Shown here one piece after another: positions 6,887-58,723 of a stretch of 58,723 nucleotides of DNA. This stretch comes from a virus (lineage: Duplodnaviria; Caudoviricetes). The position numbers and the translations under genes were made by a program. The number at the start of each line of letters is the position of its first letter. The stretch's first letter is position 1. The stretch is taken from the IMG/VR virus record IMGVR_UViG_3300045955_000216, positions 1 to 58,723 of that record. One strand, 5' to 3'. The notes beneath the pieces were generated by a model that ran no database searches, had not been told where the DNA came from, and saw only the letters and a list, made by a program, of their open reading frames with translations.

Positions 6887-6987
6887 TCAGTCTCCCCGCC
6901 GCCGCGGTGACATGGGAACCCCGACCGCCGCCGGCGTGGCGGCGCCGACGACGATCGGGTGCTTTCGGGATTGCCCCCGACCTACCC

Positions 6988-19884: not shown

Positions 19885-20117
19885 CACTCGGCGCTCTGTT
19901 TGCCCGGGGTGCAGCCGGACTCGGCGGAGGCCTTCCCGCCCACCGCGCCGGGGCCGCCCTCCGCGCCTTCCCCCCCGACCGACCCGCCGGGACCGCCGGT
20001 GCCGCCGTCTGAGCTCGCGCGCGCATGGCACCCCGGCGACTCGGAGGTGAGCTTCACGCAGGCGCCGGCGACCAGGAGCAGCGCCACCAAGAGGAATCCG
20101 GTCAGACCTCGGCACAT
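19884..20117 (-). CDS. Small Gly-rich lipoprotein
   Basis: Hydrophobic leader, AGAC lipobox. Confidence 0.55.
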   Translation of the reverse strand: MCRGLTGFLLVALLLVAGACVKLTSESPGCHARASSDGGTGGPGGSVGGEGAEGGPGAVGGKASAESGCTPGKQSAE

Positions 20118-31752: not shown

Positions 31753-32141
31753 GCCGTGGCCTCCGTGGGGGCCGTCCACCACTCGAGGGCATCCGTCACC
31801 GCGTAGCACCGCCAGCCGAGGTACGCCAGCCCGAGCCCGTAGGGCGAGCCCGTCGGGATCGCCAGGCAGACGCGCGCCCAGCGGCTCGCGAGGTCCGCGC
31901 GGATCGCCCCGAGCAAGGTCCGGATCCCGGCGAAGGACCGGGCCGCCGCGTCGATGGCGACGTGCTCGAGGTAGAACTCGCCGCGGATCGGGCCGCCCGA
32001 CGCGACGCCGATCGGGGTCCCGTCTCGGTCCAGGCGCCACCAGGTCCGATCGGGGCCGTGATGCACGGGGCCCGGGATCATCGCGAGGAGCCGGGGCACG
32101 AGCGGGTCGTCCCAGCCGATCCGCTGGACGGTGTGCGTCAC
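31749..32141 (-). CDS. GNAT-like protein (podovirus ejection-locus type)
   Basis: PIGVA..FYLEHVAI...LGW; typical position. Confidence 0.45.
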   Translation of the reverse strand: MTHTVQRIGWDDPLVPRLLAMIPGPVHHGPDRTWWRLDRDGTPIGVASGGPIRGEFYLEHVAIDAAARSFAGIRTLLGAIRADLASRWARVCLAIPTGSPYGLGLAYLGWRCYAVTDALEWWTAPTEATA

Positions 32142-32626
32142 GGCTGGTCGAACCCCCGCTCCTGGATCAGGAAGAGGAGCGCGCGCACGACGCGGCGGAA
32201 GAAGGTCCGCTGGGCGTCGGTGTAGGTCGGATCCGGAAAGAGCGCGTCCACCATCGCCGCGACCTGGGCCGGCGTCGGGAGGTTCTCGCCCTGGATGGCG
32301 ACGTGCGCGGTCTCGGTCCGTGTCCGGAGGGCGAGCTCCGCCGCCAGGCGGGCCGCCTCGCGGGCCTCAAGGCTCGACGGGAGACCGGGGTTGTGAGCGA
32401 GGACGATCGCCTCGGCGGCCGCCGCCTGGGCGTCCGGCACCGTGATTCGGAGCCGTTGCCCGCCGTCGGATTCGACGACCGCGGGGATCCCCGCCGCCTG
32501 GAGCTGCTCCTGGAGGAGCGGCGCCTTGTGCGGCCGGAGATAGGTGCGCGTCTCCGCGCCGGCCTCGAGGGCCAGCGTCCCCACCAGGACCAGGACGACT
32601 CCGACGTGTCGCATCGCGTGCCTCAT
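32138..32626 (-). CDS. Hypothetical tail-associated protein with signal-peptide-like N-terminus
   Basis: MRHVGVVLVLVGTLALEAGA; follows tail fibre. Confidence 0.6.
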   Translation of the reverse strand: MRHAMRHVGVVLVLVGTLALEAGAETRTYLRPHKAPLLQEQLQAAGIPAVVESDGGQRLRITVPDAQAAAAEAIVLAHNPGLPSSLEAREAARLAAELALRTRTETAHVAIQGENLPTPAQVAAMVDALFPDPTYTDAQRTFFRRVVRALLFLIQERGFDQP

Positions 32627-33927
32627 GGCCCGAGCCAGTAGATCCAGAACTCCGGGGCGTAGTTGGTCGCCGCCTGCGTGTTGAGCGACCCGCCCGAGTC
32701 CTGGAAGGCGTTGCACTCGACATAGTTGGTGGCCGCCAGGCTGTACGCGGTGACGACCGTCGTCTCCTTGCCGGCGGTGGCGTTCGCGGCCGGCTGCCGC
32801 TGCCGCGCGAGGCTCGTCGTCCCGCCGAGCATGATCTCGACCCCGCGGTCCCCGGTGGCGTGCCCCGCCCACTGGAGGGAGCACCCGATCAGGTACTTCC
32901 CGGCCCCGCCCGCGGGAATCGTGAGCCGGCTCGTCTGGGAGCTCGTCGAGTGGAAGTCCGAGGTATCGAACCGCTCGGTGTCGAACGTCACCGCGGTCCA
33001 GGCGTTGTTGCCGATCGAGATGTTGAGGCTGTTGTAGACGCGCGCCCCGGTGGCGGCCGTCGCCGTCGCCTCCGAGGGGTGCGGGGTGAAGACCGGCGAG
33101 AGGTAGCCCTCGACCAGGATGGCCGCGTCGATGTAGGCGGTCGTGTCTCCGGTGTCGACGCTGAGGGCCCCGGTGATGCCCGTCGCCGACCCGGAGAGGG
33201 TCCGCGTGACCGTGAGAAATTCCCAATTCGCGCCGCCCGTGTGGTAGCTCGAGAAGGTCGTCGCGACCCCGTCCGCGAGCGAGAGTCGGGCCCGCGTCGC
33301 CACGGTGGCCCGCACCCAGGCCCCGAAGGTGTACGTCCGGTCGCGGAAGTAGCTCGTCCCGCCCGCGGCCGTCGAAATGGCCTGGCTCAGGCTGGCGTCG
33401 GCGCCGCTCCGCGTGACGGCCGCGCTGTAGACGGCGTGCTTGATCTGGCCGGCGTCGCGCGCGATCGTCGCGCCGGCCCCGGACAAGGTCCAGTTATCCG
33501 GCGCGACGGTGGTCCCGTTCGACCACTTCTCCATCGACCCGTTGAGGAGGTAATTCGGTCGGTTGGGCTCGACGGGCGTCTGGTACCAGTAGACGCCGCT
33601 CGAGGCCCCGCGGGTCAGGAGCTTGAGCTGGTACCGGAGGCGCTCGAGCTCGCCGGCGAGGGAGGTGGCCTGGCTCTCCGCTCCGCTCGGATACGGGTTC
33701 ACCGCCGACTGCATCTGCGACACGGTGGCGGAGTAATCGTCGACGCATTGGGTCGTGCTGTTCGTGGTGGCGGCCTGGGTCATGCTGTTGTTCAGGTCCG
33801 GCGCCGTGAGGACCTCGTTGTTCGACCAGACCTTGTAGACGCCGCAGTTCCCGGCGCCCTCGGCCTGGGCCCCTGCGAGGATCAAGACCGCCAGGGCGAG
33901 GCCGCTCCACTGTCGTCGGTTGAGCAT
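32623..33927 (-). CDS. Tail fibre/spike: CBM-like and C1q-like domains, N-terminal signal peptide
   Basis: W...EVLTA.DLN anchor motif, NYLLNGSME, VTFDTERFD...AGKY. Confidence 0.7.
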   Translation of the reverse strand: MLNRRQWSGLALAVLILAGAQAEGAGNCGVYKVWSNNEVLTAPDLNNSMTQAATTNSTTQCVDDYSATVSQMQSAVNPYPSGAESQATSLAGELERLRYQLKLLTRGASSGVYWYQTPVEPNRPNYLLNGSMEKWSNGTTVAPDNWTLSGAGATIARDAGQIKHAVYSAAVTRSGADASLSQAISTAAGGTSYFRDRTYTFGAWVRATVATRARLSLADGVATTFSSYHTGGANWEFLTVTRTLSGSATGITGALSVDTGDTTAYIDAAILVEGYLSPVFTPHPSEATATAATGARVYNSLNISIGNNAWTAVTFDTERFDTSDFHSTSSQTSRLTIPAGGAGKYLIGCSLQWAGHATGDRGVEIMLGGTTSLARQRQPAANATAGKETTVVTAYSLAATNYVECNAFQDSGGSLNTQAATNYAPEFWIYWLGP

Positions 33928-33929
33928 GG

Positions 33930-35561
33930 TCACTCCGCCACCTTGGCCCCGATGAAGGCCTTGATGATCTTGAAGCTCGCGCCGGCTTCGCTGTTGTAGC
34001 CGCGGAAGGAGATGCGCGTCCCCCGCCAGAGGAGCCGCCGGCGCCGGTGGATGATGCGCGCCTCCGCTAGGCGGTCGACGTCGAGCACGAACACGCCGAG
34101 CGGCACCCCGGTCGCGGCGACATTGAACGCGAGCGGCGTCAGCGTCTTGAGGATCCCGTCGATCCAGACGTCGACATACAGCGTGTGCTCCCCGAGCCCC
34201 TCCACCCAGAACTCGAGGTAGTCGAAATTCTTGATGCGCCCGCGCCACTCCGGGACAACCTCGCCCAGGTCGGTGTGGTCGGTCTGAAACTCGCCGATGT
34301 AGCCGGCCCCGTCCTTCGAGCGGTCCGGCATGTCGAGGCGGTACACATGGCCGGAGGTCGTCCCGATGTAGGGGCGGGTGATGCCCTGGTGTCGGCGCAT
34401 GGTGAGGCACGTCGCTTCGTCCCGGTCGCTGTAACAGAAGCGGGGCCCGACGGCCGGATTGTTGAAGTCGAGCGTCAGCCGATAGGGCGCCAGGGGGCCC
34501 GCGGCCTGCGTCCCGAAGGCGTCGGCCTGGAACGCATCCGCCTGGAAGGCGGGGACGGTCTGGCCGACCGAGCCGCGGGCCGGGAGGAGCGCATAGGCGA
34601 GGGATTTATCCCCGTACCAGACGATCGTCGCGCGCCCGAGGGCCTCAGCGTCGACATGCTCCCGGATCCAGGTCCCGAGCTTCGGCGTGGTGAGGTCGGA
34701 GCTCTCCGCGTCCCGCTCGACCGAGGTGGCGGACAGCGCGTGGACCGAGCCCTCGGTGTCGATGAAGGCCACGTCATTCGGGATCGGCGTGACGCCCCAG
34801 GGGCCCGAGGTCCCCACCGCGCGACTCTGGATGTCGTACCGCCAGGCCGCCGGATCGGGGTTCGACGTGTCAATGACATAGACCCCGTTCGGCCGCTTCC
34901 AGAGGACGAGCATCTTCCGGAAGGACATCGCCGCGACGATCTCGTCGCCCTCGCCGGGCCCGATCGGGATCGAGCCGGCGCCGGTCCCCACGAAGTCCTC
35001 GTGGTCGCTGGACGGCGTGTAGTAGGCCGTGTGCTGGAGGAAGGCCCAATGCCGCCCCTCGTGGATGATCCCGACGGACGGCTGGCGGGCCCCCACCCAA
35101 TCGAGGGGCCGCTTGGCGGGGTCGAGCGGCGCCATCGTGAGGAAGTCCCCGACGCCGACCTGGATGGGCGAGGCCCCGGTGTAGAGGAAGAGCTTCTTCG
35201 GGGCCCCGGGGACCTCCTGGCCGCCCTCGACGAAGTAGGGCGGCCGGCCCGTGTTGATCGCCCCCTCGGGCCGGGCCGTGATCGCGAAGGTCCAGCTCAC
35301 GCCGTCGTCGAGGTAGATCCCCCCGCCGATGGTGACGGCGACGGTGCGCTGGGTCGCCGACTCCGGCCACCAATCCCAGAGCCCCCGGATGGGGCCGGGG
35401 AGCGCCGAGACGTTCTGCCGCTGGGCCCCGCCTTCTTTCTCGATCTGATTGTTCTCGAGGGTGATGCCGCGGGCCAGGATGAGGCCCGTGATCGGGACCC
35501 GCCGGGGCCCATACATCCCGTCCTCGCCGACGGGGATCTGGGGCTTGAGGCCGGTATACAT
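33930..35561 (-). CDS. Tail nozzle/stabilisation protein (beta-propeller)
   Basis: Beta-rich; GDEIVA, DVAFID motifs; follows adaptor. Confidence 0.65.
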   Translation of the reverse strand: MYTGLKPQIPVGEDGMYGPRRVPITGLILARGITLENNQIEKEGGAQRQNVSALPGPIRGLWDWWPESATQRTVAVTIGGGIYLDDGVSWTFAITARPEGAINTGRPPYFVEGGQEVPGAPKKLFLYTGASPIQVGVGDFLTMAPLDPAKRPLDWVGARQPSVGIIHEGRHWAFLQHTAYYTPSSDHEDFVGTGAGSIPIGPGEGDEIVAAMSFRKMLVLWKRPNGVYVIDTSNPDPAAWRYDIQSRAVGTSGPWGVTPIPNDVAFIDTEGSVHALSATSVERDAESSDLTTPKLGTWIREHVDAEALGRATIVWYGDKSLAYALLPARGSVGQTVPAFQADAFQADAFGTQAAGPLAPYRLTLDFNNPAVGPRFCYSDRDEATCLTMRRHQGITRPYIGTTSGHVYRLDMPDRSKDGAGYIGEFQTDHTDLGEVVPEWRGRIKNFDYLEFWVEGLGEHTLYVDVWIDGILKTLTPLAFNVAATGVPLGVFVLDVDRLAEARIIHRRRRLLWRGTRISFRGYNSEAGASFKIIKAFIGAKVAE

Positions 35562-35564
35562 GGC

Positions 35565-36449
35565 CTAGCGGTAGGGCCCCGTCGTGGGGTACCGGGGCCC
35601 GTTGAGCGCCTGCTTGAGGCGGCCGTCCTCGACGATGAGGATTTCGACGCCCTTCCCGAAGAGCACGCCCGCCCCGTCCGCGCGGTTGTCGTTCCGCATG
35701 GCATGGAGGAAGTAGAGGCCCGCGTCGGCGATGAGCTGGCGGTACGGGGTCGGGACCAGGATGGTGACCCCCACCCCGTCGAGGTCCGGGGGGTAGAGCG
35801 TGTGCGGGACCTCGTAGCGGCGCGCGACGGTCGGGTAGTGGCTCAGGCGGATCCCGGTCATCCCGATCCGGGCCGCCCGGAGCGGCTCGTCGGCGCCGGT
35901 GCGCGGCTCCGGCCAATCCTCCCGGAGCTTCTCTTCGCTGATGAGCTCGATCTCGCGGCCGTCCTGGGCGCTGTAGATGCCCAGGAGATGCCGGAGGGTG
36001 CCGCCGCTGTAGGGCGTCGTGAGGGTGTACTCGTCCTTGTAGACCGTGAAGGGCACCGCCCCGTCCGTGCCCTGCCAGGCCACGTCGAGGTCGAAGCTGG
36101 CGCTCCCGGCCGTGTGGGTCAGGATCCGGTAGAACCCCTGGCTCGAGCTCAGGGGGTAGAACTTCCGGCCGGCGAAGGACCCGAGGCCCACCGCCGGCGC
36201 GATCGAGAAGGTCGCGGTCGCCGAGCCCCCGGTCAGCGTGACCAGGCCCGCGGCATACGGGGCGACCGTGACGAAGGCCGCGGGCTGCGGGGCCCGGAGG
36301 AACAGGAACGGGTGCCGGTTGCAGAGCTCCCGGTACCCGCGGACCGTCGCCCGCTGCGCGGCGACATAGAAGTCGCCGCTGGTGTCGGCGAGGTTCTCCC
36401 CGGCTCGATCCAGGACGTCTTGAAATAACTCAGTAAAGGTGCTTAGCAT
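35565..36449 (-). CDS. Head-tail adaptor
   Basis: TFTEL..V..R...HPF.FL, PTPYRQLI pattern. Confidence 0.65.
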   Translation of the reverse strand: MLSTFTELFQDVLDRAGENLADTSGDFYVAAQRATVRGYRELCNRHPFLFLRAPQPAAFVTVAPYAAGLVTLTGGSATATFSIAPAVGLGSFAGRKFYPLSSSQGFYRILTHTAGSASFDLDVAWQGTDGAVPFTVYKDEYTLTTPYSGGTLRHLLGIYSAQDGREIELISEEKLREDWPEPRTGADEPLRAARIGMTGIRLSHYPTVARRYEVPHTLYPPDLDGVGVTILVPTPYRQLIADAGLYFLHAMRNDNRADGAGVLFGKGVEILIVEDGRLKQALNGPRYPTTGPYR

Positions 36450-36457
36450 GTCCCATC

Positions 36458-37030
36458 GTGGGACGACATGTCGGTCCTCCGGGGACGCGGTGGTGTCCGA
36501 GATGCCGTGACTTTCGGCCGCGCGAGACCTTCGGGCCCACGCGCGCCCGGGCGTACTGCCATCCGTGCTATGCCGCCTACATGGCCGAGCGCACAGGCGG
36601 CTACCGCGTGGGGCCCCGAGGGCGCCGCACGCAGATGCCGCTCGCGAGCGGTCGGCGGCGATGTACCGCCTGTGGCCTGGTAAAGGCGCTGGACGCCTTC
36701 TGGCGCCTGGGCCGCTCGTACCGTTCTCAGTGCGGTGCCTGCTCCGCCCCGCGAAACCGGCGATACGACCAGGTCGTGAGAGCGGAGGTTCTCGCCGCCT
36801 ATGGCGGCAAGTGCGCCTGTTGCGGGGAGACTGAGAGCGCGTTCCTTACCATCGACCATGCGAACGGCGATGGAGCTCGGCATCGTGCCCTCGTTGGCCG
36901 GACCAGTGTGTGTTGGTGGCTGCGCCGGCAGGGGTTCCCCCAGGGGTTTCAGGTGCTCTGCTGGAACTGCAACGTCGCGAAGCACCTCCTTGGGGCGTGC
37001 CCTCACCCAGCACGCGACCTCTTGCCCTGA
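36458..37030 (+). CDS. HNH homing-type endonuclease, inverted orientation
   Basis: YGGKCACCGE..LTIDH...LCWNCN; two CxxC fingers. Confidence 0.85.
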   Translation: MGRHVGPPGTRWCPRCRDFRPRETFGPTRARAYCHPCYAAYMAERTGGYRVGPRGRRTQMPLASGRRRCTACGLVKALDAFWRLGRSYRSQCGACSAPRNRRYDQVVRAEVLAAYGGKCACCGETESAFLTIDHANGDGARHRALVGRTSVCWWLRRQGFPQGFQVLCWNCNVAKHLLGACPHPARDLLP

Positions 37031-37033
37031 CCG

Positions 37034-37312
37034 CTAGGCCGGCCGCTGCTTGCCCGGCTTGGTCTTCGACTGGATCTCGGCCTCGCGGGACTGCATGAAG
37101 GGGTCATTGACCTTCGCCCGCGAGGTCTGGTCGTGGCGCGTGGTCTCGAGGCTCTTGCCGAAGAGCTCCATCCCCTTCGAGGGGCCCGGACCGGCGTTGG
37201 CCCCCCCGTGGAGGCTCACGTCCTTCGGCTCGCCCTTCGGGGCGAACGCCCCGTAGCTCGAGCGGACCTCGTCAGCGCAGGGGGCGCTCTTGCCCTGGTA
37301 GTCGGTGCCCAT
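37034..37312 (-). CDS. Hypothetical protein
   Basis: GAGGAGG RBS. Confidence 0.6.
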   Translation of the reverse strand: MGTDYQGKSAPCADEVRSSYGAFAPKGEPKDVSLHGGANAGPGPSKGMELFGKSLETTRHDQTSRAKVNDPFMQSREAEIQSKTKPGKQRPA

Positions 37313-37377
37313 CACAGCCTCCTCAGCGTGTGAAGCGTGGGTCGTTACACTTCGGGTCCCGGTCGCGCCGGCCCGGT

Positions 37378-37884
37378 TTAGGCGCCGGTCAGCACCTCCG
37401 CGCTGATGCCGCGGTCGTGCGGCGGGAGCCCGGTGCCGTCGCCGAGGTCCGGATCGCCCTGGCGGAAGGTCACGCCGGCGGCGTTGTAGGCGGTCGTGCC
37501 GAAGGTGAAGCCGGCCGCCACCGCGATCTCGATGATGGCGACCGTCGTCTTGTTGGCCGAGCGGCGCGGGATCGGCGCCAGGGCGATCGCCGAGGCGATG
37601 GCGCCCTGCTTGCCCGTGATGGCCCCGGCCGTGTCGATCTCGAGCCGGACCCGGCAGCACTCGCCGGCGCCCAGGTTCGTGAAGCTGTTGTCGAAGTCGG
37701 CGACGGGATCCGCGGCGGCCACCGTATACGCCTGGTCCTTGATCCAGAACGAGTGGGCGTCCGCCCGGACGCGGGTGGTCGTGGTGCCGACCCGATAGTT
37801 CCCGTAGGTGGTGCGGTTCACGAGCGCCTGGAGGAGGTTGAAGAGGTCCTTCTCCCCTCCCACGCCGCGCGGTTGAATGACCAT
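37378..37884 (-). CDS. Putative capsid decoration/cement protein
   Basis: Beta-rich, FTFGTT motif; downstream of capsid. Confidence 0.5.
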   Translation of the reverse strand: MVIQPRGVGGEKDLFNLLQALVNRTTYGNYRVGTTTTRVRADAHSFWIKDQAYTVAAADPVADFDNSFTNLGAGECCRVRLEIDTAGAITGKQGAIASAIALAPIPRRSANKTTVAIIEIAVAAGFTFGTTAYNAAGVTFRQGDPDLGDGTGLPPHDRGISAEVLTGA

Positions 37885-37905
37885 GTCTGCCTCCCGCCCG
37901 GCCGC

Positions 37906-38481
37906 TTAGGCCAGGCCCATCGCGGCCAGCACCGGCCGGCCGCGGTCCACGTCTCGGCGCTCGCGCTCGAGCTCCATCCGCACGAACCGCTCAATGCGAT
38001 GGGCGACCTCCGGCGTGGCCCGCACCGAGAACTCCGGCGCGTCGTCCGCGCCCTCGTGTCGGAGGAACCAGGCGAGGTGCCCGATGTGGCGGACCACATG
38101 CCAGGGCTTGCCTTCCTTCCGCGTCTGCCGCTCGCGGATCGGGAGGCCGTTGGTGTCGACGGCGGCGAAGTCGTAGCTGGTCGCCCCCTCGGTCGAGGGG
38201 AGATAGAGCTTGCCGCCGGGGCGGCTGGGATCCGCGATCTCCCGGACGGAGCCGCGGAGATACACGTTCTTCGAGGGGTGGTTGCCGAGGTACACGACGC
38301 GCGCCTCGACCGCCCACATCGTCGGATCCGACCGCTCCTGCCGCGGGGGCCGGAGGGTGATCTCCTGGTCCTCGGGCTCGAGCGTCCGCATCGGGACCGG
38401 CTCGGCCTCGCGCTCGAGCGGGTCCATCACGGCCACCGCCCCCTGCGGGGCGAGCTCCTTGTCCGACGGCTTGCGCGGCAT
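37906..38481 (-). CDS. Hypothetical protein
   Basis: AAGGAG RBS. Confidence 0.7.
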   Translation of the reverse strand: MPRKPSDKELAPQGAVAVMDPLEREAEPVPMRTLEPEDQEITLRPPRQERSDPTMWAVEARVVYLGNHPSKNVYLRGSVREIADPSRPGGKLYLPSTEGATSYDFAAVDTNGLPIRERQTRKEGKPWHVVRHIGHLAWFLRHEGADDAPEFSVRATPEVAHRIERFVRMELERERRDVDRGRPVLAAMGLA

Positions 38482-38502
38482 AGCACGCGACTCCTTCTCC
38501 CG

Positions 38503-38544
38503 CGCCGGCGACCCCGGAGGGCGCGGGCCCCCCGGGGTCCGGCG
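38503..38544 (-). terminator. GC hairpin after capsid gene
   Basis: CGCCGG.GACCCCGG...CCGGGGTCCGGCG; no clear U-tract. Confidence 0.35.
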
Positions 38545-38551
38545 TCAGGGG

Positions 38552-39697
38552 TTACGAGATGTTGCTGCGGAAGGTCCGCACGGTGATGACACCGTTGTCC
38601 ACGCTGTTGAAGACCGCCTTCGTCACGTCGTAGATCGCGGAAATGGCGAAGCCGATCTTGTTGGCGTAGTCGAAGGACTGCTCCACCCACTGTGGGCGCT
38701 CGCCCCAGGCGAAGACGCCGGCCTGGCGGCCCAGGAAGAGGTTCTCGGAGCCGGCGAGGTTGCTGCCGGCGCCCCAGGTCGTCGCGAGCGCGGTCCGGGT
38801 CGAGCTCCGGATGACCACACCGTCCCAGATGCCCTCGGCGCCGGTGAAGAGGGGGTTCATCTTCCCCCGCTCCTGCGCCTCGCGCTGGGCCTGGGACCAC
38901 GCGGGATCCTTGAGCTTGAGGTCATGCAGCGAGTCCGGGGAGACGACGAGCAGGAAGTAGTCCCCGCCCTCGATCCGGACCGGGAAGATCTGCGGCGTCG
39001 CCTTGCGGGCGATGACCTTGACCCGCGAGATGAGGGCCAGGTCGAGGTAGTCGCCCGACTCGATCGTCGCCGTCGAGACCGCGTCCCCGCCGTAGGCCAC
39101 GCGGCCGGACGAGGGCGAGGTCGAGAGGGCGGTGAAAATCTTGTCGTCGATCTGGTCCGCCAGCCAGTCCTTGAGGAGCTGCTTCGCCACCTTGCGCTGC
39201 TCGAACGCCGTGCGGCGCTCGGACAGCCGGCCGGCGAGGCGGACACCGTTCCGGTACTGGTTGAGGGTGACGTCGTCGGAGTGGAACGTCATCGCCTCTT
39301 CGGAGCCTTCCAGCGTCGTGTCGCCGGTGACGCCGGCGCCGGTGAGCTGCCGCGCCAGGGTGAAGGTGATCTTCTCGCCGGGCTTCCCGTCGAGCTCTTC
39401 CTTGACCTGGATGATGGCGTTGACCTCCTTCTGGAGGTACGGCGCCATGAAGACGGCCTCGGGCAGTTCGAGCCAGATGTCGTCGGACCAGGCCTGGACG
39501 GCGATCGCGGCGCCGCCGGCCACGGTCGTGTCGGCCCCGCCCGAGATGGACAGGCCGAGGCGGAGGAGCCGCTGGGTCGGCGTCTCGAGGAGGCGTGGGG
39601 CCTCACCGGCCGCACGCAGGAGACGGGTCGGCGTCCAGAACAGCGTGACGAGCGCCGCGAGGACGCTCGCCCACAGGGTCCGGATGGTGGCGATCAT
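38552..39697 (-). CDS. Major capsid protein, N4-gp56/DUF4043 family
   Basis: GEKITF.L...L.G.GVTGD..LEG.EE; NPLFTG..G.WDGV. Confidence 0.9.
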   Translation of the reverse strand: MIATIRTLWASVLAALVTLFWTPTRLLRAAGEAPRLLETPTQRLLRLGLSISGGADTTVAGGAAIAVQAWSDDIWLELPEAVFMAPYLQKEVNAIIQVKEELDGKPGEKITFTLARQLTGAGVTGDTTLEGSEEAMTFHSDDVTLNQYRNGVRLAGRLSERRTAFEQRKVAKQLLKDWLADQIDDKIFTALSTSPSSGRVAYGGDAVSTATIESGDYLDLALISRVKVIARKATPQIFPVRIEGGDYFLLVVSPDSLHDLKLKDPAWSQAQREAQERGKMNPLFTGAEGIWDGVVIRSSTRTALATTWGAGSNLAGSENLFLGRQAGVFAWGERPQWVEQSFDYANKIGFAISAIYDVTKAVFNSVDNGVITVRTFRSNIS

Positions 39698-39716
39698 GGG
39701 AGTCGACTCCTCCGGG

Positions 39717-40634: not shown

Positions 40635-40698
40635 CGCTGCCTACCTCCCTGTGCCGGGTCTCACGGGCCGGCGTCCGATGGGCCTTGGTAACGGGGGG

Positions 40699-40773
40699 GC
40701 CTCCCCGAAAAACGACACGCGCGCCGGAGAGCTCCTGGGAGCCCTCGGGCGCGCGTGGTTCGCGTCTGCCCCG
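40699..40773 (-). promoter_or_regulatory. Conserved terminator-containing leader element, copy A
   Basis: CGGGGCAGACGCG-AAC-CACGCGCGCCC..hairpin..TTTTTCGGGGAGGC; second copy at 53681-53752. Confidence 0.7.
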
Positions 40774-40891
40774 GTCGGTCTCGGCGACCGGTGCTATCTC
40801 ATACGGGGACCTCGCGGGATCTCAACCGGGGACCGTTGTCGCATCGCTTCCTCTCTACCACACGTTTCCCGCGGCCTCGCGAGAACGGCCC

Positions 40892-42940: not shown

Positions 42941-44269
42941 CTAGAGGAGCTCCACCAGGATCAGGTAGGGGCGGACGCTCAGGTTCGAGCTCGCGCTACT
43001 GTGCTGCGCCGTGATCTCGAGTGTCTGGTCGGCGGTGGAGTCGACCGTCAGGCCCGTGTGGGGCGAGTGCCCGGCCGGGAGCGCCGCGCCTGGCTGCCCA
43101 CCCGTGACGCCCGCGTTCCCGGCCGACGGATCGTAGAGGCCGGAGAGCGAGCCGATCTGGGCGTTGGTCGCTCCGACCGCGTGGAGGAGCCCATCGTACC
43201 GGAAGGCGAAACGGGTCGCCGAGGCGTCAATGGCTACGCCGTTGAGCGTGCCGAAGGTCGTGCCGCCGTATTTCATCCGGACGGTCGTCGTGATGCCGCC
43301 GCCGGTGTCGTTCAGAAGGTCGAGGAAGACCGTGACGCGGAGGCCTCGGCTCGTGCCGAGCGTCCCGCCCTTGATGGTCGGGGCCGTCGTGAAGAGGGAG
43401 GTTTCCGTCGTCGTGTTGACAATGTTCTTGATCGGGTTCCCGACCTCGCGGAAGAGCACCCCGCTCAGGGCGACCGTCTGCCCCGTCGCGTCGAGGACGT
43501 TCAGCCGGTTGACCGCCGGGGTCTCGGTCGGGACGAAGAGCCGGACGCGGTTCGCCGACGGGGTCGACGGGGGCGTCATCTCCTCGAACTGGAAGTAGCT
43601 CGCCCCCGGGAGGGAGGCCGGGTCCACCTGGGGGAGCGTCGCCCCCAGGAGGACCGCCGTGACCGTGCCGGCGCCCCCGCCGCCGTAGGCGGTCGTGGCG
43701 ACCGCGAAGGCCCCCGCTGGCGGGGAGGCCGAGCTCGTCATGAGCGTCCCGCTATCCTGGGCGGCGAGCGTGGTGGCGCTCTTGACCAGGTAGCGGCCCC
43801 GGGTGACGTTCCCCTGGACCTTTACCGTCACCAGGCCCCGGTGGTAGAACTTCCCGGCGACGTTGTTGGAGATGGACTCGGCGGCGACGACATAGGTCTG
43901 GAGGCTGTTGAGCGTGTCCCCGAGCGTCACCGCGGAGTCGTTCGCGGTGTCGATGGCGACGACGTCGTTCACCGCGAGGGAGCCGCCGGTCTTGTTGGTG
44001 AGGGTCAGGTAGCTCGGGCCGTAGATGTCCGGCGCGGCGACCCAGGACCAGCCGTCGGACGCCCCGGTGTCCCGCTGGAAGAGCTGGCCCGTGGTGCCGC
44101 CGTCGATCTGGTGGCAGTCGTTCCAGTCGCTCGGCCGGACCAGAGAGGCGTCGGCGCCGTCCGGCTTGCCGGACACGAAGGAGTGCTTGAGGCACTGGGC
44201 GTCGGCCAGGCCCGGCGCCAGGCCGAGCCCGAGGGCCGCGAGCAGGATCCACGCGAGCGTGCGTCGCAT
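42941..44269 (-). CDS. Tail fibre/head fibre-like protein with signal peptide
   Basis: MRRTLAWILLAALGLGLAPGLADA; H.FVS.K.DG.D.SLVRPSDWN motif; Thr/Gly-rich. Confidence 0.6.
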   Translation of the reverse strand: MRRTLAWILLAALGLGLAPGLADAQCLKHSFVSGKPDGADASLVRPSDWNDCHQIDGGTTGQLFQRDTGASDGWSWVAAPDIYGPSYLTLTNKTGGSLAVNDVVAIDTANDSAVTLGDTLNSLQTYVVAAESISNNVAGKFYHRGLVTVKVQGNVTRGRYLVKSATTLAAQDSGTLMTSSASPPAGAFAVATTAYGGGGAGTVTAVLLGATLPQVDPASLPGASYFQFEEMTPPSTPSANRVRLFVPTETPAVNRLNVLDATGQTVALSGVLFREVGNPIKNIVNTTTETSLFTTAPTIKGGTLGTSRGLRVTVFLDLLNDTGGGITTTVRMKYGGTTFGTLNGVAIDASATRFAFRYDGLLHAVGATNAQIGSLSGLYDPSAGNAGVTGGQPGAALPAGHSPHTGLTVDSTADQTLEITAQHSSASSNLSVRPYLILVELL

Positions 44270-44282
44270 CGTCCTCACCTCC

Positions 44283-45074
44283 CTAACAGCCCACACCCAT
44301 GAGGCTGCGCGTCATCGGACAGGTCACCACCGCACCCTCTAGGGCGATCGTCATCATGCCCTTCGTGCTGTTGGCCGAGGTCGTGTTGGTCGTCGCCCCG
44401 TAGGCTCCGGCCGTCGCCTTCTCGCCGGTGACGAACATCACGCGCCCGTCGTTCCCCGAGGCGTGGCCGAAGTTGTTGGCGGCCGTGTCGTAGCTCGTGG
44501 TGATGTTCGCGAGGTCGGTGTTGGTCCAGGTCGCGCCGAAGTTCTGCGCGTCGTCCATGAGCGTCGCCGCGATGACCACGAGGCAGTTATCGGCCGTCGT
44601 CGTGGCCCCGGTCGCGGACAGGCTCGTGTCGCTGGTGGCGTCCACGTTGCCGGCCGTGATGTTCCAGGGGTCGCCGGTCGTCTTGACCCCCCGGAAGCAG
44701 ATCATCATCCCGGCGTTGTGGTCGCCGGCATCGTTCGTGGTCGGCCCGGTTGTGCCGCCGCCGTCGTAGCGCGCCCAGAAGACGGCGAGCCGGGTCGAGG
44801 ACGCGCCGCCGGCCGCCCCGGTGCCCTGGGGCGAATTGGTCACCTGCGCCCAGGTCTGGCTCCCTTGGGTCGCGATGCTGGAGGCCGTGGCATCGTTCGC
44901 GGTCTCGATGAAGAGCAGACACACATCGTTCGTCGCGAGCCCGGCCGGGAAGGCGACCTGGACCCCGCCGACGCCGTTGTTCGTGGTCACGTCGTTGACG
45001 ACGGTCGGCATCCCGGCCAGGGCCGGGCCGGCCAGGGCGAGGACACACGCGAGGGCGGCCAGCAAGCGGCGCAT
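44283..45074 (-). CDS. Beta-rich virion-associated protein with signal peptide
   Basis: MRRLLAALACVLALAGPALA; Thr/Gly/Ala-rich. Confidence 0.55.
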   Translation of the reverse strand: MRRLLAALACVLALAGPALAGMPTVVNDVTTNNGVGGVQVAFPAGLATNDVCLLFIETANDATASSIATQGSQTWAQVTNSPQGTGAAGGASSTRLAVFWARYDGGGTTGPTTNDAGDHNAGMMICFRGVKTTGDPWNITAGNVDATSDTSLSATGATTTADNCLVVIAATLMDDAQNFGATWTNTDLANITTSYDTAANNFGHASGNDGRVMFVTGEKATAGAYGATTNTTSANSTKGMMTIALEGAVVTCPMTRSLMGVGC

Positions 45075-45716
45075 TCAGTGGACCGGCACCGCGCCGGGGG
45101 TGCCGTGTAGCGGGACGGCCCCGGGGGTCCCGTGGTCGGGCGGGCTCGGGAGGGGACCGTGTTCGTCGCCAAGCTGCTCGAAGGACACATGCGCGAAGGT
45201 CGACGGTCCGGTCGCGCCGTCCCCGATCACGATTTGGGCGACGGTCGACGCGAACGCGACCGATTGCGGCGTGTTGCTCGACACCCAATCGTTGTGCGTC
45301 AGGTCGGCACTGGTGGCGTCGAGGAAGTTGTTAGCCGACGCCGTGTTCCCCGAGACGGTGAACTTGTCGGACCCGTTGTCCCGGATGATGGCTTTCATGC
45401 CGGTGCGGGCGTAGCTAGGATCGCCCATCGCCACACGCACGTTGTAGGTGCCGGCGGCGGTCAGATCGACGCGGACGGTGACCTCGCTGGCTTCGGCGCT
45501 GGGGAAGTGAAACCCCGCGAGCTTGGCGTTGTTGCTGCTATTCCGGTCGCGCTCCTGAATCCCAATCACCGAGGTATACCCGAATGTTACCCCGTTGCGG
45601 GTGACAGGGTAGTCTTCGCCGTTATCTCCGCCATCGTCGAGCAGATAGGTGTCATCGGCCGCGTCGGTGACGTATCCCGACGTCTGGCGGAAGTTGATCC
45701 CCTTCGTCCAGGCCAT
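45075..45716 (-). CDS. Putative carbohydrate-binding protein
   Basis: GTYNVRVAMGD jelly-roll motif; lower GC3; C-terminal HGTPGAVP repeat. Confidence 0.5.
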   Translation of the reverse strand: MAWTKGINFRQTSGYVTDAADDTYLLDDGGDNGEDYPVTRNGVTFGYTSVIGIQERDRNSSNNAKLAGFHFPSAEASEVTVRVDLTAAGTYNVRVAMGDPSYARTGMKAIIRDNGSDKFTVSGNTASANNFLDATSADLTHNDWVSSNTPQSVAFASTVAQIVIGDGATGPSTFAHVSFEQLGDEHGPLPSPPDHGTPGAVPLHGTPGAVPVH

Positions 45717-46018
45717 CAGTGCGTCCCGCTCATCGAGCCGTCATCGGGGATGGCGAAGATGCAGAGACTCACGGTGTCGGGGTCCAGCGCCACGAGATCA
45801 TGCATCGCTCGCGCCGGCACCTCGATCCACTCGCCGGGGCGCAACGTCTGCACCCGCGCCGGGGCGTTCTGGATGCGGACCTCGAGCCGCCCCGCGCAAC
45901 ACACCGTGATGTGGTCCTGCCCGTGGGTGTGGGCGGGCAGCGTGTCGCCCACGCCGTCGTAGTCCACGCGGCGCACGAACACGTGCCCAAAGAGCCCGTT
46001 ATCGACGGCGAGAGCCAC
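45716..46018 (-). CDS. Cupin-domain protein
   Basis: HTH..DH...G...W.EVPA..MH. Confidence 0.75.
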   Translation of the reverse strand: MALAVDNGLFGHVFVRRVDYDGVGDTLPAHTHGQDHITVCCAGRLEVRIQNAPARVQTLRPGEWIEVPARAMHDLVALDPDTVSLCIFAIPDDGSMSGTH

Positions 46019-46455
46019 TAGGTCGGCTCCGTCGCCGTGCCGGCATCGGGCCAGAGGCTTTGGTGGGGCGGCACCGTGGCGAGGAGCGTGTCCATGCCGT
46101 TGTTGATCTGCGCCGCGGTCGGGGTGCTTGTCGACAAGTTGAACTGTGCCGTGATGACGGGGTCCAGTTCCGTCAGGATGTCCACCGCGTCACTCTCCAC
46201 GACGCCGACGCGCTGGAAGCCGTTGAGCAGGACATCTCGCTTCGTGCCCGGCACGCGGAACGGATCGAGCCAGTCGAGGCGCTTGCGATACTCCCGGGCG
46301 TCCTGCTCCATGACGATCGCGACCTGCGCCGGGGTCCGGCCCGCCGCGAGGTTGGCCTTGTACGATTTGGCGTTGGCGCGCATGTCGCGCCGCAGCCCTT
46401 CGAGGTTGCGGATCACCTGGAGAAGCAGGGCAATACTTTCGAGCGCAGCCATCAT
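46018..46455 (-). CDS. Hypothetical protein
   Basis: Operon packing. Confidence 0.65.
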   Translation of the reverse strand: MMAALESIALLLQVIRNLEGLRRDMRANAKSYKANLAAGRTPAQVAIVMEQDAREYRKRLDWLDPFRVPGTKRDVLLNGFQRVGVVESDAVDILTELDPVITAQFNLSTSTPTAAQINNGMDTLLATVPPHQSLWPDAGTATEPT

Positions 46456-46461
46456 TCCCCC

Positions 46462-49065
46462 TTAGTCGTTCGCCGCGACTTCATACGAGATGAAGCCGGT
46501 AATGCGGCTTGAGCCCACTTGGGTCAGGCACACGTTGTTGGTGTCCACGCCGGTTTGCATGAAGGGCACCCCGGTCGCCATCGCCACCCCGCCTTGCGCC
46601 GCCGACGACACCCCGCTGCCCTCAGTCGTCGAGCCGATGATCGCCGTCGGCGAGGTCGCGCAGACGGAGCCCGTGCCCTCGATGAGGTTCCATGTCTCGG
46701 CCGCGTTCGCGTTGATGAAGATGGCGCAGAAGTAGACCCGCTGGCCCGAGGTGCCCGTGATGAGCTGCGTGTCGGCGGTCTGGCTGATCGCGATTTTCTG
46801 CGTGCAGGCGATCGGCTGCCGCACCGTCAGCCCGCGATCCGCGTTGAGCGGCCGCCCGGTCGAGGACTTGATCTCGTTCCCGGCGTCGTCCCGGATGCGG
46901 ACCGCCGAGTCGTTCGAGACCGTGACGCGCGGGATGCCGGACCCGCTCGCGCCCGTGCCGGTCACGGTGGCCGAGCCCCCGAACTGCGCGACGTTGACGC
47001 TCGCGTTCGCAGGGAGCGAGAGCACGTCCACCTGCAGCTCGCCGCTCGTATCCGTCGCGATGTCCTGCGTGTTGCCCGAGCCGTCCTTGCCGCCGATCCG
47101 CACGGGGTTCCCGGAGACGGCCGCCCCGTCGGCCGCCGTGCCGGCCACCGTGGCCGTCGGCAGCGTGAGGATGTCGACCTGCAGCTCCCCGTTCGTGTCC
47201 GTCTTGAGGCCCCGGAGGTTGGTCCCGTCCGTGCCCCCGGCATACATGGCGTGCGTCGGCGGGGACCCGCCCGGCGGGCGCTCGGCTCCCCACGGCGGGA
47301 CCGAGGGCGCGGACGTGGCGCGGAACGCCACCGTCGCGGTGCCCGAGGTGTACGCGTCCGCGCGGACGCGGACGTTCGAGACGCCGGCCAGGAACGGGAA
47401 CACGAACTGCCCGTTGGCGGTGATGGACTGCGTCATCGCCTCGCCCGCGATGGACCAGAGATCGGTCGCGGACCAGGTCGTCCCGCCGTCGAGCGAGACC
47501 TCGGGGATCAGGGTCGCGACCCAGGTCCCGGTGATCGTGACGCCGGCCCCGTTGATGCCCGCGCTCAGCGCGAGCGCCGACGTATCCTCGTCGGCCGTGA
47601 TGGTGTCGGACGCGGTCTGGACCGAGGCCCCGCCCGAGACCCGCAGGGCTCCGGTGCTGTCGACCTGGAGGACCGTGCGGTCCTGGTCGGCCGCGAGGGC
47701 GGTGCCCGCGTCGTTGCGGACCACCCCAGCGAGCGTGAGCTTGTCGCCGGAATTGTGGGCCGTGTCCTCGTCGTACTGCGTGCCGCCGCCAGCCGAGACC
47801 TCGTTGCCCGAGGCATCCCGGAGGTTGACGTGGAAGGCCCGGTTCTCGGTCAGACGCGCCGCTCCGGCCTCGCCTTCGGCAAGCGTCGACGGGGACGTAT
47901 CGTCCCGGTAGCCACCGACGGGCACCATGTTCCCGGATCCCGCCGTGAAGCCGGTCTTGTCTTGCTGGCTGACCCCGGAGCCCGTGCAGTTGCCGCAGTT
48001 GACGGCGAGCTGGTTCGAGCCGTTGACACTGGCGGTGTTGGTCCCGTCCCACACACGAACCGCTGAGTCGTTCGAGACAGTGACTCGAGGGATGCCCGCG
48101 CCCCCGGTGCCGGTCCCCGTGGCGACAGCCGATCCGCCGAACTGCGCGACGTTGAACGGCTCGTTGTCGGGGAAGCTCCCGATCGTGACCGAAGGAAGCG
48201 TCAGGACATCGACTTGTAGCTCCCCAGACGTATCGGTCGCGATGTCCTGGGTGTTGCCGGAGCCGTCCTTCCCACCGATCCGTACTGGGTTGCCGCTGAC
48301 CGCCGCACCATCGGCGGCGGGACCAGCCACCGACCACGGAGCCCCGCCCTGGTTCGCGGTGACCGTGCCCGAGACCGGCTGCGTGACCCCGGACCCGTCG
48401 ACGTGGAGCCGGCCGCTCGACACGTTGGCCTGCGTGGTGTCGCCCGCGCCGTCGCGGATAATGCCGTCCTGGTTGGCGGCGGTCGCGGCACCGGTGGGCA
48501 GCGGGAGCGACGCCGCGCTGATCGGCTGCGTGACGCCCGAGCCGTCGACGTGGAGCCGGCCGCTCGAGACGTTCGCCTGGGTCGTGTCCCCGGTGCCGTC
48601 GCGGACGATCCCGTCGTAGTTGGACACGGAGACCGTGCCCGTGACGGTGACGTCGTTGTTGGCCCCGAGGTTGACCAGGAGCCCGTCGGTGCTGTTCCCG
48701 GGGCAGCGGTCCCAGGTCGACCCGTCGAAGCAGTAGAGGTACGAGCGGATGATCGAGAGCGTGACGCTGTTGGACTCGTTGTCCGCCGGGGTGCCGCCGG
48801 CCGGGAAGCGGCCCGTCAGGGTGCTGTTGAGGAGCAAGGTCCCGAGGGTCGCCTCGGTGGCGGCGCCGGTCGGGAGCGGCAGCGAAGCGGCCGACACCGG
48901 CGACGTCACCCCGGAGGGATCCACCAGGAGCCGGCCGCTCGTGACGTCGGCCTCGCCCTGGCCGGCGACGCCGTCCTTGATCCGGACCGGGGTCTCGCCC
49001 TGGGCGAGGGCCAGGGTCGGGAGGAGGAGGAGCTCGAGGAGCCAGAGCGCCAGGATCCGTCGCAT
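46462..49065 (-). CDS. Repeat-rich tail-fibre-like protein with signal peptide
   Basis: MRRILALWLLELLLLPTLALA; VDGSGVTQP, SLPLPTGAAT and long internal repeats. Confidence 0.7.
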   Translation of the reverse strand: MRRILALWLLELLLLPTLALAQGETPVRIKDGVAGQGEADVTSGRLLVDPSGVTSPVSAASLPLPTGAATEATLGTLLLNSTLTGRFPAGGTPADNESNSVTLSIIRSYLYCFDGSTWDRCPGNSTDGLLVNLGANNDVTVTGTVSVSNYDGIVRDGTGDTTQANVSSGRLHVDGSGVTQPISAASLPLPTGAATAANQDGIIRDGAGDTTQANVSSGRLHVDGSGVTQPVSGTVTANQGGAPWSVAGPAADGAAVSGNPVRIGGKDGSGNTQDIATDTSGELQVDVLTLPSVTIGSFPDNEPFNVAQFGGSAVATGTGTGGAGIPRVTVSNDSAVRVWDGTNTASVNGSNQLAVNCGNCTGSGVSQQDKTGFTAGSGNMVPVGGYRDDTSPSTLAEGEAGAARLTENRAFHVNLRDASGNEVSAGGGTQYDEDTAHNSGDKLTLAGVVRNDAGTALAADQDRTVLQVDSTGALRVSGGASVQTASDTITADEDTSALALSAGINGAGVTITGTWVATLIPEVSLDGGTTWSATDLWSIAGEAMTQSITANGQFVFPFLAGVSNVRVRADAYTSGTATVAFRATSAPSVPPWGAERPPGGSPPTHAMYAGGTDGTNLRGLKTDTNGELQVDILTLPTATVAGTAADGAAVSGNPVRIGGKDGSGNTQDIATDTSGELQVDVLSLPANASVNVAQFGGSATVTGTGASGSGIPRVTVSNDSAVRIRDDAGNEIKSSTGRPLNADRGLTVRQPIACTQKIAISQTADTQLITGTSGQRVYFCAIFINANAAETWNLIEGTGSVCATSPTAIIGSTTEGSGVSSAAQGGVAMATGVPFMQTGVDTNNVCLTQVGSSRITGFISYEVAAND

Positions 49066-58714: not shown

Positions 58715-58723
58715 CCGCGGATC
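58597..58723. repeat. Terminal direct repeat, copy 2
   Basis: Identical to 1-127. Confidence 0.95.

What the first reader, a model, noticed from the sequence alone, without database searches (positions are those of the whole stretch)
32138..49065. Several tail-fibre-like proteins carry classical Sec signal peptides
Seen: basic-hydrophobic-AxA leaders on ORFs 46462-49065, 44283-45074, 42941-44269, 32623-33927 and 32138-32626. Most also have Cys pairs near the predicted mature N-terminus or elsewhere (QCLKH..NDCH; GNCG..TQCV; YCFDGSTWDRC). Known: tailed-phage fibres normally assemble in the cytoplasm without leaders. Inference: these receptor-binding or decoration proteins are exported, disulfide-matured in the periplasm and added to virions at lysis, or they modify the host surface. 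Either would be an unusual morphogenesis route.
Basis: partly seen in the sequence, partly recalled or inferred. Interest (0 to 1): 0.8.

Follow-up and report, generated by a model that had tools for sequence, protein, structure and literature searches.

The report
Phage tail fibres carrying export signals
A complete 58.6-kb temperate short-tailed phage puts ordinary bacterial secretion signals, mostly with paired cysteines, on every host-recognition-type protein it encodes, so these parts very probably fold in the periplasm rather than in the cytoplasm where the particle is built.

Summary
Observation confirmed. All five ORFs begin with a basic, hydrophobic, AxA-type leader at a start that is coupled to the upstream gene. 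A sixth such protein, a beta-helix enzyme, lies at 17379-18593.

The leaders are not chance. My rule flags 5 of 23 structural-region proteins, against 11 of 512 ORFs in control viral loci.

In four families (A, B, C, D), relatives exist both with and without a leader. In B, C and D the leaderless forms start where the predicted mature protein starts.
- In C and D the leader travels with a cysteine pair. C: 3 of 3 against 0 of 10. D: both or neither cysteine in 150 of 150.
- In A, 20 of 21 leader-bearing relatives have an even, non-zero cysteine count and none has an odd one.

D is a real fibre: an anchor module, a carbohydrate-binding sandwich and a C1q/TNF-like tip, in the gene slot after the 543-aa tail protein. 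Lipoproteins in the lysis cassette indicate a two-membrane host.

Sec export and oxidative folding are well supported. Attachment to virions at lysis is inferred (about 0.5); an envelope-acting, non-virion role is the main rival.

Five literature searches found no description. This scan has reported the same pattern on other genomes.

The parts
46462..49065 (-). A, 867 aa: leader (49003-49065), then a Gly/Thr/Ser-rich repetitive body and a C-terminal beta-sandwich tip; 8 Cys in the mature part
   Evidence: Relatives occur in 40 IMG/VR loci, most with leaders. In the monomer model only residues 750-867 are confident.
44283..45074 (-). B, 263 aa: leader (45015-45074), then a beta-sandwich domain common in viral proteins; 5 Cys in the mature part
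   Evidence: Ten relatives carry leaders. Sixty are classed as short, and many of these start MA(L/I)PTF, which is equivalent to B residue 20/21.
42941..44269 (-). C, 442 aa: leader (44198-44269), conserved N-terminal anchor domain (about 43625-44197) with C26 and C52, and a variable distal half
32623..33927 (-). D, 434 aa: leader (33862-33927), N-module with C28 and C61 (33592-33861), CBM-like sandwich (about 33088-33555) and C1q/TNF-like tip (32626-33060)
32138..32626 (-). E, 162 aa: leader (32555-32626), then a small protein with no Cys; its start overlaps D's stop
   Evidence: The homologue in provirus G001 keeps a leader and the same ATGA overlap.
33930..35561 (-). 543-aa tail-module protein directly upstream of D; likely docking partner by position, identity not shown
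   Evidence: Relatives are detected in 9 of 9 leader-bearing and 61 of 70 other N-module loci. There was no Pfam, PHROG or PDB sequence match.
17379..18593 (-). Sixth leader-bearing protein, 404 aa: leader (18540-18593), coiled coil, poly-Pro and right-handed beta-helix; 10 Cys in the mature part; no fibre anchor
   Evidence: Pfam Beta_helix E = 4.8e-14.
19546..20117 (-). Two small lipoprotein genes with lipoboxes LAGC and AGAC in the lysis region, which indicate a host with an outer membrane
20132..20581 (-). Cell-wall hydrolase (endolysin candidate)
   Evidence: Pfam Hydrolase_2 E = 2.1e-13.

Best explanation
The window is a complete temperate podovirus-like genome. Its receptor-binding-type proteins (D, C, A and probably B), the small protein E next to D, and a beta-helix enzyme are each made with a cleavable Sec-type signal peptide.

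Proposed sequence of events:
1. The proteins are threaded unfolded through SecYEG.
2. Signal peptidase I cuts them at the AxA site. For B, C and D this produces the same N-terminus that leaderless relatives have.
3. They fold and trimerise in the periplasm, where cysteine pairs are oxidised.
4. DNA-filled, tailed but fibreless particles accumulate in the cytoplasm.
5. When holin, endolysin and the lipoprotein (spanin-like) genes break the envelope, the two pools mix. The fibres dock through their conserved N-terminal anchor modules, D next to the 543-aa tail protein.

Status of each step:
- Shown here: the leaders, their conservation, the link with cysteines, the fibre architecture and the gene position.
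- Inferred: export, cleavage and disulfides (I put this at about 0.85).
- More weakly inferred: attachment at lysis (about 0.5).
For: Real starts and coding signal.

Enrichment: 5 of 23 structural-region proteins flagged, against 11 of 512 control ORFs.

Leader conservation without sequence conservation:
- A family: 22 of 36 unique ORFs are flagged and 5 more have visible leaders, across loci of 41-72% G+C.
- D module: 96 of 150 representatives carry a leader.
- B: 10 relatives carry a leader.
- E: 1 of 1 relative carries a leader.

Mature N-terminus matches the leaderless N-terminus: C, D and B.

Cysteines:
- C family: both Cys in 3 of 3 leader forms and in 0 of 10 leaderless forms.
- D module: both Cys in 88, neither in 62 and exactly one in 0 of 150. 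The split is leader with Cys 78, leader without 18, no leader with Cys 10, no leader without 44.
- A family: 20 of 21 complete leader forms have an even non-zero count, 0 are odd and 1 has none. Clear leaderless forms have 1, 0, 0, 1 and 3.
- In the window: 19 Cys in 2064 mature residues against 15 in 8084 residues of 18 other proteins, odds ratio 5.0.

Fibre identity of D:
- CBM-like and C1q/TNF-like folds, with phage phi812 spike knob at rmsd 2.5 A over 143 columns.
- Profile match to the same knob, E = 1.8e-4.
- PHROG 'virion structural protein'.
- Relatives carrying Collar or collagen domains.
- The gene sits just after the 543-aa protein in 9 of 9 leader loci.

Completeness and host:
- A 127-bp terminal repeat marks a complete genome.
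- No leaderless fibre-sized gene was found elsewhere in it.
- Lipoproteins indicate a diderm host.
Against: - No experiment of any kind, and no SignalP run.
- On a tree of the D module the leader state changes only about 10 times and the Cys state about 4 times. Only 2 independent pairs lie on supported branches, so the Fisher p of 3.6e-14 is not a valid probability.
- 18 of 96 leader forms lack the Cys pair and 10 of 54 leaderless forms have it.
- B has an odd Cys count and E has none.
- Two of 150 relatives have a lipobox before the module (P0110, P0115). That would tether them to a membrane and fits virion attachment poorly.
- The relative G001 has three leaderless C paralogues beside its leader-bearing D, so D need not be its only fibre.
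- The roles of the 543-aa protein and of the N-modules as docking partners rest on position and modular architecture, not on a test.
- A's leader has a Glu in its core.
- In one search the start was chosen as the first rule-positive start, which favours finding leaders.
Confidence: 0.5

Rival explanations
1. The proteins are exported but never join virions. The fibre-like proteins act on the infected or lysogenic cell's own envelope. They might mask or destroy receptors to block superinfection and loss of progeny on debris, or loosen polysaccharide at release.
For: - The sixth leader protein is a beta-helix enzyme with no anchor, placed beside the lysis genes.
- Two of 150 D-module relatives are lipoprotein-type.
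- G001 has leaderless fibres (C1-C3) that could serve the virion.
- A and B lie in a variable stretch between terminase and portal that G001 lacks.
Against: - A free-acting protein has no need of a tail anchor, yet the anchors are kept. C's anchor is 57-61% identical to leaderless paralogues. D's module is invariant at 37 positions among 8 relatives.
- Cleavage would restore the same N-terminal register as in leaderless fibres.
- D occupies the fibre slot with overlapping stop and start in 5 of the 7 loci read, and follows the upstream gene closely in the other 2.
- This complete genome shows no leaderless fibre-sized gene.
Confidence: 0.3
2. The leaders are uncleaved signal anchors, or SAR-like domains as in some endolysins. 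The proteins stay tethered to the inner membrane facing the periplasm and are released only when the membrane is depolarised at lysis.
For: - Gly/Ala-rich cores in C and E.
- SAR endolysins are an established phage precedent (my recall; a SAR endolysin paper appears in the listing).
Against: - Small residues sit at -3 and -1 in all five. Ala is at -1 in 76 of 87 rule-positive D-module relatives.
- The uncharged cores of about 9-17 residues are mostly short for a membrane span.
- The leaderless forms begin right at the predicted site.
Confidence: 0.07
3. The leaders are artefacts. True starts lie downstream, or the hydrophobic N-termini are a by-product of 72% G+C coding.
For: - B has an in-frame ATG at 45011, right after the leader.
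- Ala- and Leu-rich sequence is common at high G+C.
Against: - Start coupling and ribosome sites.
- Coding periodicity inside the leaders.
- 3 of 298 off-frame ORFs flagged.
- Leaders are present in relatives down to 41% G+C.
- The Met after B's leader is a conserved hydrophobic position of the domain (L, I, M, F or V in relatives), not a relic start.
Confidence: 0.03

Closest known systems
Leaderless tail fibres with the same N-terminal modules, from uncultured podovirus-like contigs (for example P0058, P0062, P0065, P0123 and loci L059-L129 for D; P0071-P0083 and the three G001 paralogues for C)
   Same: They share the anchor module, the gene position after the 543-aa tail protein and the modular swapping of distal domains.
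   Different: They have no leader, and in nearly all cases neither of the two cysteines. They start where the window's proteins would start after cleavage.
Bdellovibrio bacteriovorus MAT fibres (PMC10769870; passages read)
   Same: They are trimeric proteins of the phage-tail-fibre type that carry a signal peptide followed by a conserved N-terminal domain, and they work outside the cytoplasm.
   Different: They are encoded by a cell, not a phage. They are used on the predator's own structures, and many carry an S74 protease-chaperone domain. I did not test sequence relatedness to A-D.
Filamentous-phage coat proteins such as M13 G3p (PMC8310372, abstract seen in the listing; the rest is my recall)
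   Same: They are virion proteins made as pre-proteins with a Sec-dependent signal sequence and matured on the periplasmic side.
   Different: Those virions are assembled in and extruded through the membrane. Here there is a portal, an HK97-type capsid protein and a terminase, so the particle is built in the cytoplasm.
Exported phage lysis proteins: signal-peptide and SAR endolysins, and lipoprotein spanins (my recall; SAR endolysin paper listed)
   Same: They are phage late proteins that use the host Sec system and act in the periplasm at lysis. This genome has such lipoproteins.
   Different: They are enzymes or membrane-fusion parts, not proteins with a receptor-binding architecture and a tail anchor.
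Late addition of fibres to finished particles, known from in-vitro complementation of fibreless T4 and T7 particles (my recall; not looked up)
   Same: It shows that fibres can dock on completed particles after cell breakage, which is the step proposed here.
   Different: In those phages the fibres are made and normally attached in the cytoplasm.

Membership tests
Sec-type (signal peptidase I) signal peptide | Positively charged n-region at the true N-terminus | tested here: met
   Two Arg in A-D and Arg plus His in E. Starts are supported by coupling and ribosome sites.
Sec-type (signal peptidase I) signal peptide | Uncharged hydrophobic core of about 7-15 residues | tested here: met
   Met in B, C, D and E. 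A has a Glu that splits the core into 7 and 10 residues.
Sec-type (signal peptidase I) signal peptide | Small residues at -3 and -1 within a few residues of the core | tested here: met
   ALA|Q, ALA|G, ADA|Q, AQA|E and AGA|E. Ala is at -1 in 76 of 87 rule-positive D-module relatives.
Sec-type (signal peptidase I) signal peptide | Pattern kept in relatives while the sequence drifts | tested here: met
Sec-type (signal peptidase I) signal peptide | Call by a trained predictor (SignalP or similar), and cleavage in vivo | not testable with these tools
   No such predictor is on hand, and there are no proteomic data.
Tat signal peptide | S/T-R-R-x-F-L-K motif, long n-region and weakly hydrophobic core | tested here: not met
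   RR is present in A-D, but the leaders are 20-24 aa with Leu-rich cores. Relatives use Lys (MKK..., MKQ...) instead of RR. No NCBIfam family of any kind matched A-E at E <= 0.05; I did not check that a Tat-signal model is in that library.
Lipoprotein signal peptide | Lipobox L-[AS]-[GA]-C at the cleavage site | tested here: not met
   None in A-E. It is present in two lysis-region genes and in 2 of 150 D-module relatives.
Podovirus tail fibre / modular receptor-binding protein | Conserved N-terminal anchor joined to interchangeable distal domains | tested here: met
   D module joined to CBM plus C1q, Collar or collagen partners. C anchor joined to different C-termini, including Gly-rich PF21722.
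Podovirus tail fibre / modular receptor-binding protein | Gene placed in the tail module next to the tail-tube genes | tested here: inconclusive
   D follows the 543-aa protein in the window, in G001 and in 9 of 9 leader loci. That protein's identity as a nozzle is unproven.
Podovirus tail fibre / modular receptor-binding protein | Distal fold of a known receptor-binding type | tested here: met
   For D: C1q/TNF-like tip and CBM-like sandwich, model pLDDT 83. For A it is inconclusive: pLDDT 53 and no PDB match at E <= 0.001.
Podovirus tail fibre / modular receptor-binding protein | Presence in purified virions | not testable with these tools
   The phage is uncultured and has no proteome.
SAR (signal-anchor-release) domain | Uncleaved, weakly hydrophobic Gly/Ala/Ser-rich N-terminal span without a peptidase site | tested here: not met
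   AxA sites are present and the cores are mostly shorter than a membrane span. Cleavage itself is untested.

The most novel reading that the evidence does not exclude
A whole class of uncultured tailed phages, of which this podovirus is a clean and complete example, builds its particle in two compartments. Head and tail are built in the cytoplasm. Every receptor-binding fibre is matured in the periplasm through Sec, signal peptidase and the host disulfide machinery. The two are joined only in the moments of lysis. Infectivity would then depend on host export and Dsb functions, and E-like leader-bearing neighbours would be periplasmic fibre-assembly factors.
Probability: 0.45. Interest if true: 0.88.

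Novelty: new variant of a known kind. Interest (0 to 1): 0.75.

Why it matters
Textbook morphogenesis of tailed phages is wholly cytoplasmic. If fibres are exported and oxidised before they join the particle, several things follow.
- Host Sec, signal peptidase and Dsb functions become phage dependency factors.
- Fibre genes of such phages cannot be expressed or swapped in the usual way for host-range work.
- Annotation pipelines that treat a signal peptide as evidence against a structural role will mislabel them.
- Disulfide-stapled anchors may explain particle stability in soil-type habitats.

The D-module family alone has 1182 representatives at E <= 0.001. It has no Pfam family among the 10 members scanned and no match in 50,697 deposited phage records. 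The pattern is therefore common, yet it lies outside cultured model phages.

Tried and rejected
Searches that found nothing:
- Relatives by portal in viral contigs.
- Relatives by portal in metagenome contigs: 38 pattern hits, 0 confirmed.
- Nucleotide search of the capsid-portal region against phage records: one 139-nt match only.
- tRNA scan: none.
- Pfam and PHROG on A, B, C, E and several neighbours: nothing usable.
- NCBIfam: nothing for A-E.
- PDB sequence searches for the 543-aa protein and for the C family: none.

A structure: the model had mean pLDDT 52.9. Its PDB fold search gave 0 matches at E <= 0.001, so I draw no fold conclusion for A beyond a confident C-terminal sandwich.

Genome-contig scan: only 2 loci. 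One is a Geminicoccaceae MAG with a leaderless 98-aa module after a 543-aa-like gene. The window's own host stays unknown.

Tree-based test of leader against Cys: too few independent changes, not significant. I therefore do not use the Fisher value as a probability.

D with E complex prediction: 'no answer'. It counts neither for nor against binding, and E as a fibre chaperone remains a guess from position and shared leader.

Considered and rejected: Tat export and lipoprotein anchoring for A-E (see the membership tests).

Literature:
- Five full-text searches.
- Passages of PMC5723332 and PMC6950046.
- None describes signal peptides on tail fibres of tailed phages.
- Subscription journals and supplements were not searchable.


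Full report
WHAT THE WINDOW IS

The 58,723 bases are one virus record with an exact 127-bp direct repeat at both ends, so it is a complete genome of about 58.6 kb at 72% G+C.

It encodes a portal (phrog_156, E = 4e-105), a major head protein (phrog_334, E = 1.4e-68) and a large terminase. It also encodes an integrase, an exonuclease, a RecT-like protein and replication genes. It is therefore a temperate tailed phage.

The late genes run on the minus strand in this order:
- terminase
- a variable stretch holding A, B and C
- portal, scaffold and capsid
- a 294-aa and a 543-aa tail-module protein
- D and E
- three large proteins almost free of Cys, one of them 2,616-2,636 aa
- a lysis region

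An IMG/VR provirus, G001 (44.8 kb), is syntenic, with portal 72% and capsid 84% identical.

Each of the five ORFs opens with a basic n-region, an uncharged hydrophobic core and a small-x-small site. The starts are real:
- A and E overlap the stop of the gene before them (TGATG, ATGA).
- B abuts the preceding stop.
- C has a strong ribosome site.
- D has GGAG at 5 nt.

Inside the leaders, G+C by codon position is 0.80/0.50/0.93, which is the pattern of the coding regions.

My simple rule flags these five and none of 18 other structural-region proteins. It flags 3 of 298 off-frame ORFs at their first start and 11 of 512 ORFs in 68 control viral loci.

A sixth case lies outside the finding, at 17379-18593. 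It has the leader MLRRLGLGLCLLATTAHA, then a coiled coil, a poly-Pro stretch and a right-handed beta-helix (Pfam E = 4.8e-14).

LEADERS IN RELATIVES

A family:
- A has relatives in 40 IMG/VR loci.
- Of 36 unique ORFs, 22 are flagged by my rule.
- Five more show plain hydrophobic leaders that the rule misses.
- Five are clearly leaderless, with ordinary fibre-like N-termini.
- These loci span 39-72% G+C.
- Caveat: I took the first rule-positive start, which leans towards finding leaders.

D family:
- The close relatives P0001, P0002, P0003, P0005, P0009, P0010 and P0036 keep a leader of unrelated sequence, followed by an invariant G-x-C ... C-x-D module.
- A phmmer search with residues 21-112 against 1.84 billion representatives gave 1182 hits at E <= 0.001.
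- Of the best 150, 96 carry a leader.

B family:
- Of 119 relatives, the rule flags 11, one of which (P0319) looks like a false call, leaving 10.
- Sixty are classed as short. Many start MA(L/I)PTF, the position of B's residue 20/21; some lack the domain's start altogether.
- Forty-eight have longer N-terminal parts, several fused to PKD, fn3 or Calx-beta domains.
- The Met after B's leader is a conserved hydrophobic position of the domain, not a relic start.

E family: the only relative, in G001, keeps a leader and the ATGA overlap with D.

LEADERS TRAVEL WITH CYSTEINES

In the window, the mature parts of A-E hold 8, 5, 2, 4 and 0 Cys, that is 19 in 2064 residues. Eighteen other structural-region proteins hold 15 in 8084 residues (odds ratio 5.0). 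Capsid, scaffold and several large proteins have none.

C family:
- The three leader-bearing members (window C, P0069, P0070) have both Cys.
- Ten leaderless members with the same N-terminal motif have neither. They begin exactly where the mature protein would begin.
- G001's three tandem paralogues belong to this leaderless set.

D module, best 150 representatives:
- Both Cys occur in 88, neither in 62 and exactly one in 0.
- Leader with Cys 78; leader without Cys 18; no leader with Cys 10; no leader without Cys 44.
- In 79 IMG/VR loci: 9 with a leader (7 of them with both Cys) and 70 without (1 with both Cys, its start unclear).
- On a tree, however, the Cys state changes only about 4 times and the leader state about 10 times. 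Only 2 independent pairs lie on supported branches, so this family alone proves little. The weight comes from the same pattern in unrelated families.

A family:
- 20 of 21 complete rule-positive ORFs have an even non-zero Cys count (4 to 12), none is odd and one has zero.
- The five missed leaders have 10, 10, 6, 6 and 6.
- The clear leaderless forms have 1, 0, 0, 1 and 3.

From established knowledge, paired cysteines and even counts are a mark of proteins that fold in the oxidising periplasm.

WHAT THE PROTEINS ARE

D:
- The model (pLDDT 83.4) has a disordered leader, a helical N-module and two beta-sandwich domains.
- The first sandwich matches carbohydrate-binding modules.
- The second matches C1q/TNF-type heads and the knob of the phage phi812 central spike (rmsd 2.5 A, 25% identity).
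- A profile of the family finds the same knob by sequence (E = 1.8e-4).
- Its C-terminus matches a PHROG named 'virion structural protein'.
- Relatives join the same modules to Collar or collagen domains.

Gene position of D:
- In all 7 leader-bearing loci read (L051, L052, L054, L055, L058, L062, L102) the gene follows the 543-aa-like gene; stop and start overlap in 5 of them.
- By tblastn, a 543-aa-like gene lies just upstream in 9 of 9 leader loci. It is detected in 61 of 70 other loci, and by a strict distance rule lies directly upstream in 28 of those 61.
- So D sits in a conserved fibre slot whether or not it has a leader.

C has a conserved 190-residue anchor and a variable distal half.

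A is only partly modelled. The Atlas finds viral relatives and a XepA-like segment.

B is a confident beta-sandwich found mostly in viral clusters.

None of the proteins had a match in Pfam. The D module had no match in 50,697 deposited phage records.

HOST ENVELOPE

The lysis region has two lipobox proteins and a Hydrolase_2 endolysin. This fits a host with an outer membrane, and hence a periplasm.

HOW IT MOST LIKELY WORKS

The proposed route is Sec export, cleavage at AxA, oxidative folding and trimerisation in the periplasm, then docking on cytoplasm-built particles when the envelope is broken.

The arguments for docking are indirect:
- The anchors are kept under selection.
- Cleavage restores the native N-terminal register.
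- D holds the fibre slot.
- This complete genome has no leaderless fibre-sized gene.

Against it:
- Two lipoprotein-type relatives.
- The anchor-less exported beta-helix enzyme.
- G001's leaderless C paralogues.

I give about 0.85 to export and oxidation, and about 0.5 to the full chain including late attachment.

WHAT IS KNOWN

Five literature searches found no tailed-phage fibre described with a signal peptide.

The nearest published case I saw is cellular: the Bdellovibrio MAT fibres, which have a signal peptide followed by a conserved domain (PMC10769870, passages). A note of this scan led me to that paper.

The scan's own index holds many notes of the same pattern on other genomes, with follow-up reports that reached similar verdicts. 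I did not check those.

TOOLS NOT AVAILABLE

- Supplements of papers were not consulted.

Noticed in passing
window 17379-18593 (-): A sixth leader-bearing late protein with a coiled coil, a poly-Pro stretch, a right-handed beta-helix and 10 Cys in the mature part. It has no fibre anchor and sits beside the lysis genes. It is a candidate exported polysaccharide-degrading enzyme.
   Followed up: partly
window 39620-39697 (-), N-terminus of the capsid protein 38552-39697: The capsid protein starts with a hydrophobic stretch (MIATIRTLWASVLAALVTLFWTP) ahead of the conserved part. The L051 homologue also has a hydrophobic N-terminus, but G001's is Trp- and Arg-rich instead. It may be a propeptide or a membrane-association signal.
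   Followed up: partly
window 55425-55742 (-): A 105-aa ORF opens with MNRRGFFRAALGALVGA, which looks like a twin-arginine (Tat) signal. It has no family match.
   Followed up: partly
window 1-127 and 58597-58723: An exact 127-bp direct terminal repeat, which marks a complete circularly assembled or terminally redundant genome.
   Followed up: yes
G001 (L045) 5434-9070: Three tandem paralogues of C's anchor domain sit just upstream of the portal. All are leaderless and lack the two Cys of C's anchor, and they have Gly-rich PF21722 C-termini. A and B are absent from this relative.
   Followed up: yes
P0110, P0115; locus L056: These D-module relatives have a perfect lipobox (LAGC) and a Pro-rich linker ahead of the Cys-pair module, so they are lipoprotein-type fibre-like proteins.
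   Followed up: partly
L062 1752-2654 and 6976-8035: A related viral contig has four further small leader-bearing proteins around its leader-bearing fibre. Two of them are 143 aa with 4 Cys each.
   Followed up: no
window 45716-46018 (-): A 100-aa cupin-domain protein (Pfam Cupin_2, E = 1.1e-5, below the curated cut-off) lies among the fibre-like genes.
   Followed up: no
window 20860-28710 (-): The giant 2,616-aa late protein has no Cys from its 28710 start; the one Cys counted lies in the longer 28770 reading. The 517-aa and 390-aa proteins have none and the 462-aa protein has one. This contrasts sharply with the leader-bearing proteins.
   Followed up: partly
L096 2548-4167, L109 1698-3044, L119 1398-2891: Large ORFs (448-539 aa) with plain signal-peptide-like starts occur in viral loci whose N-module fibre is leaderless.
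   Followed up: no
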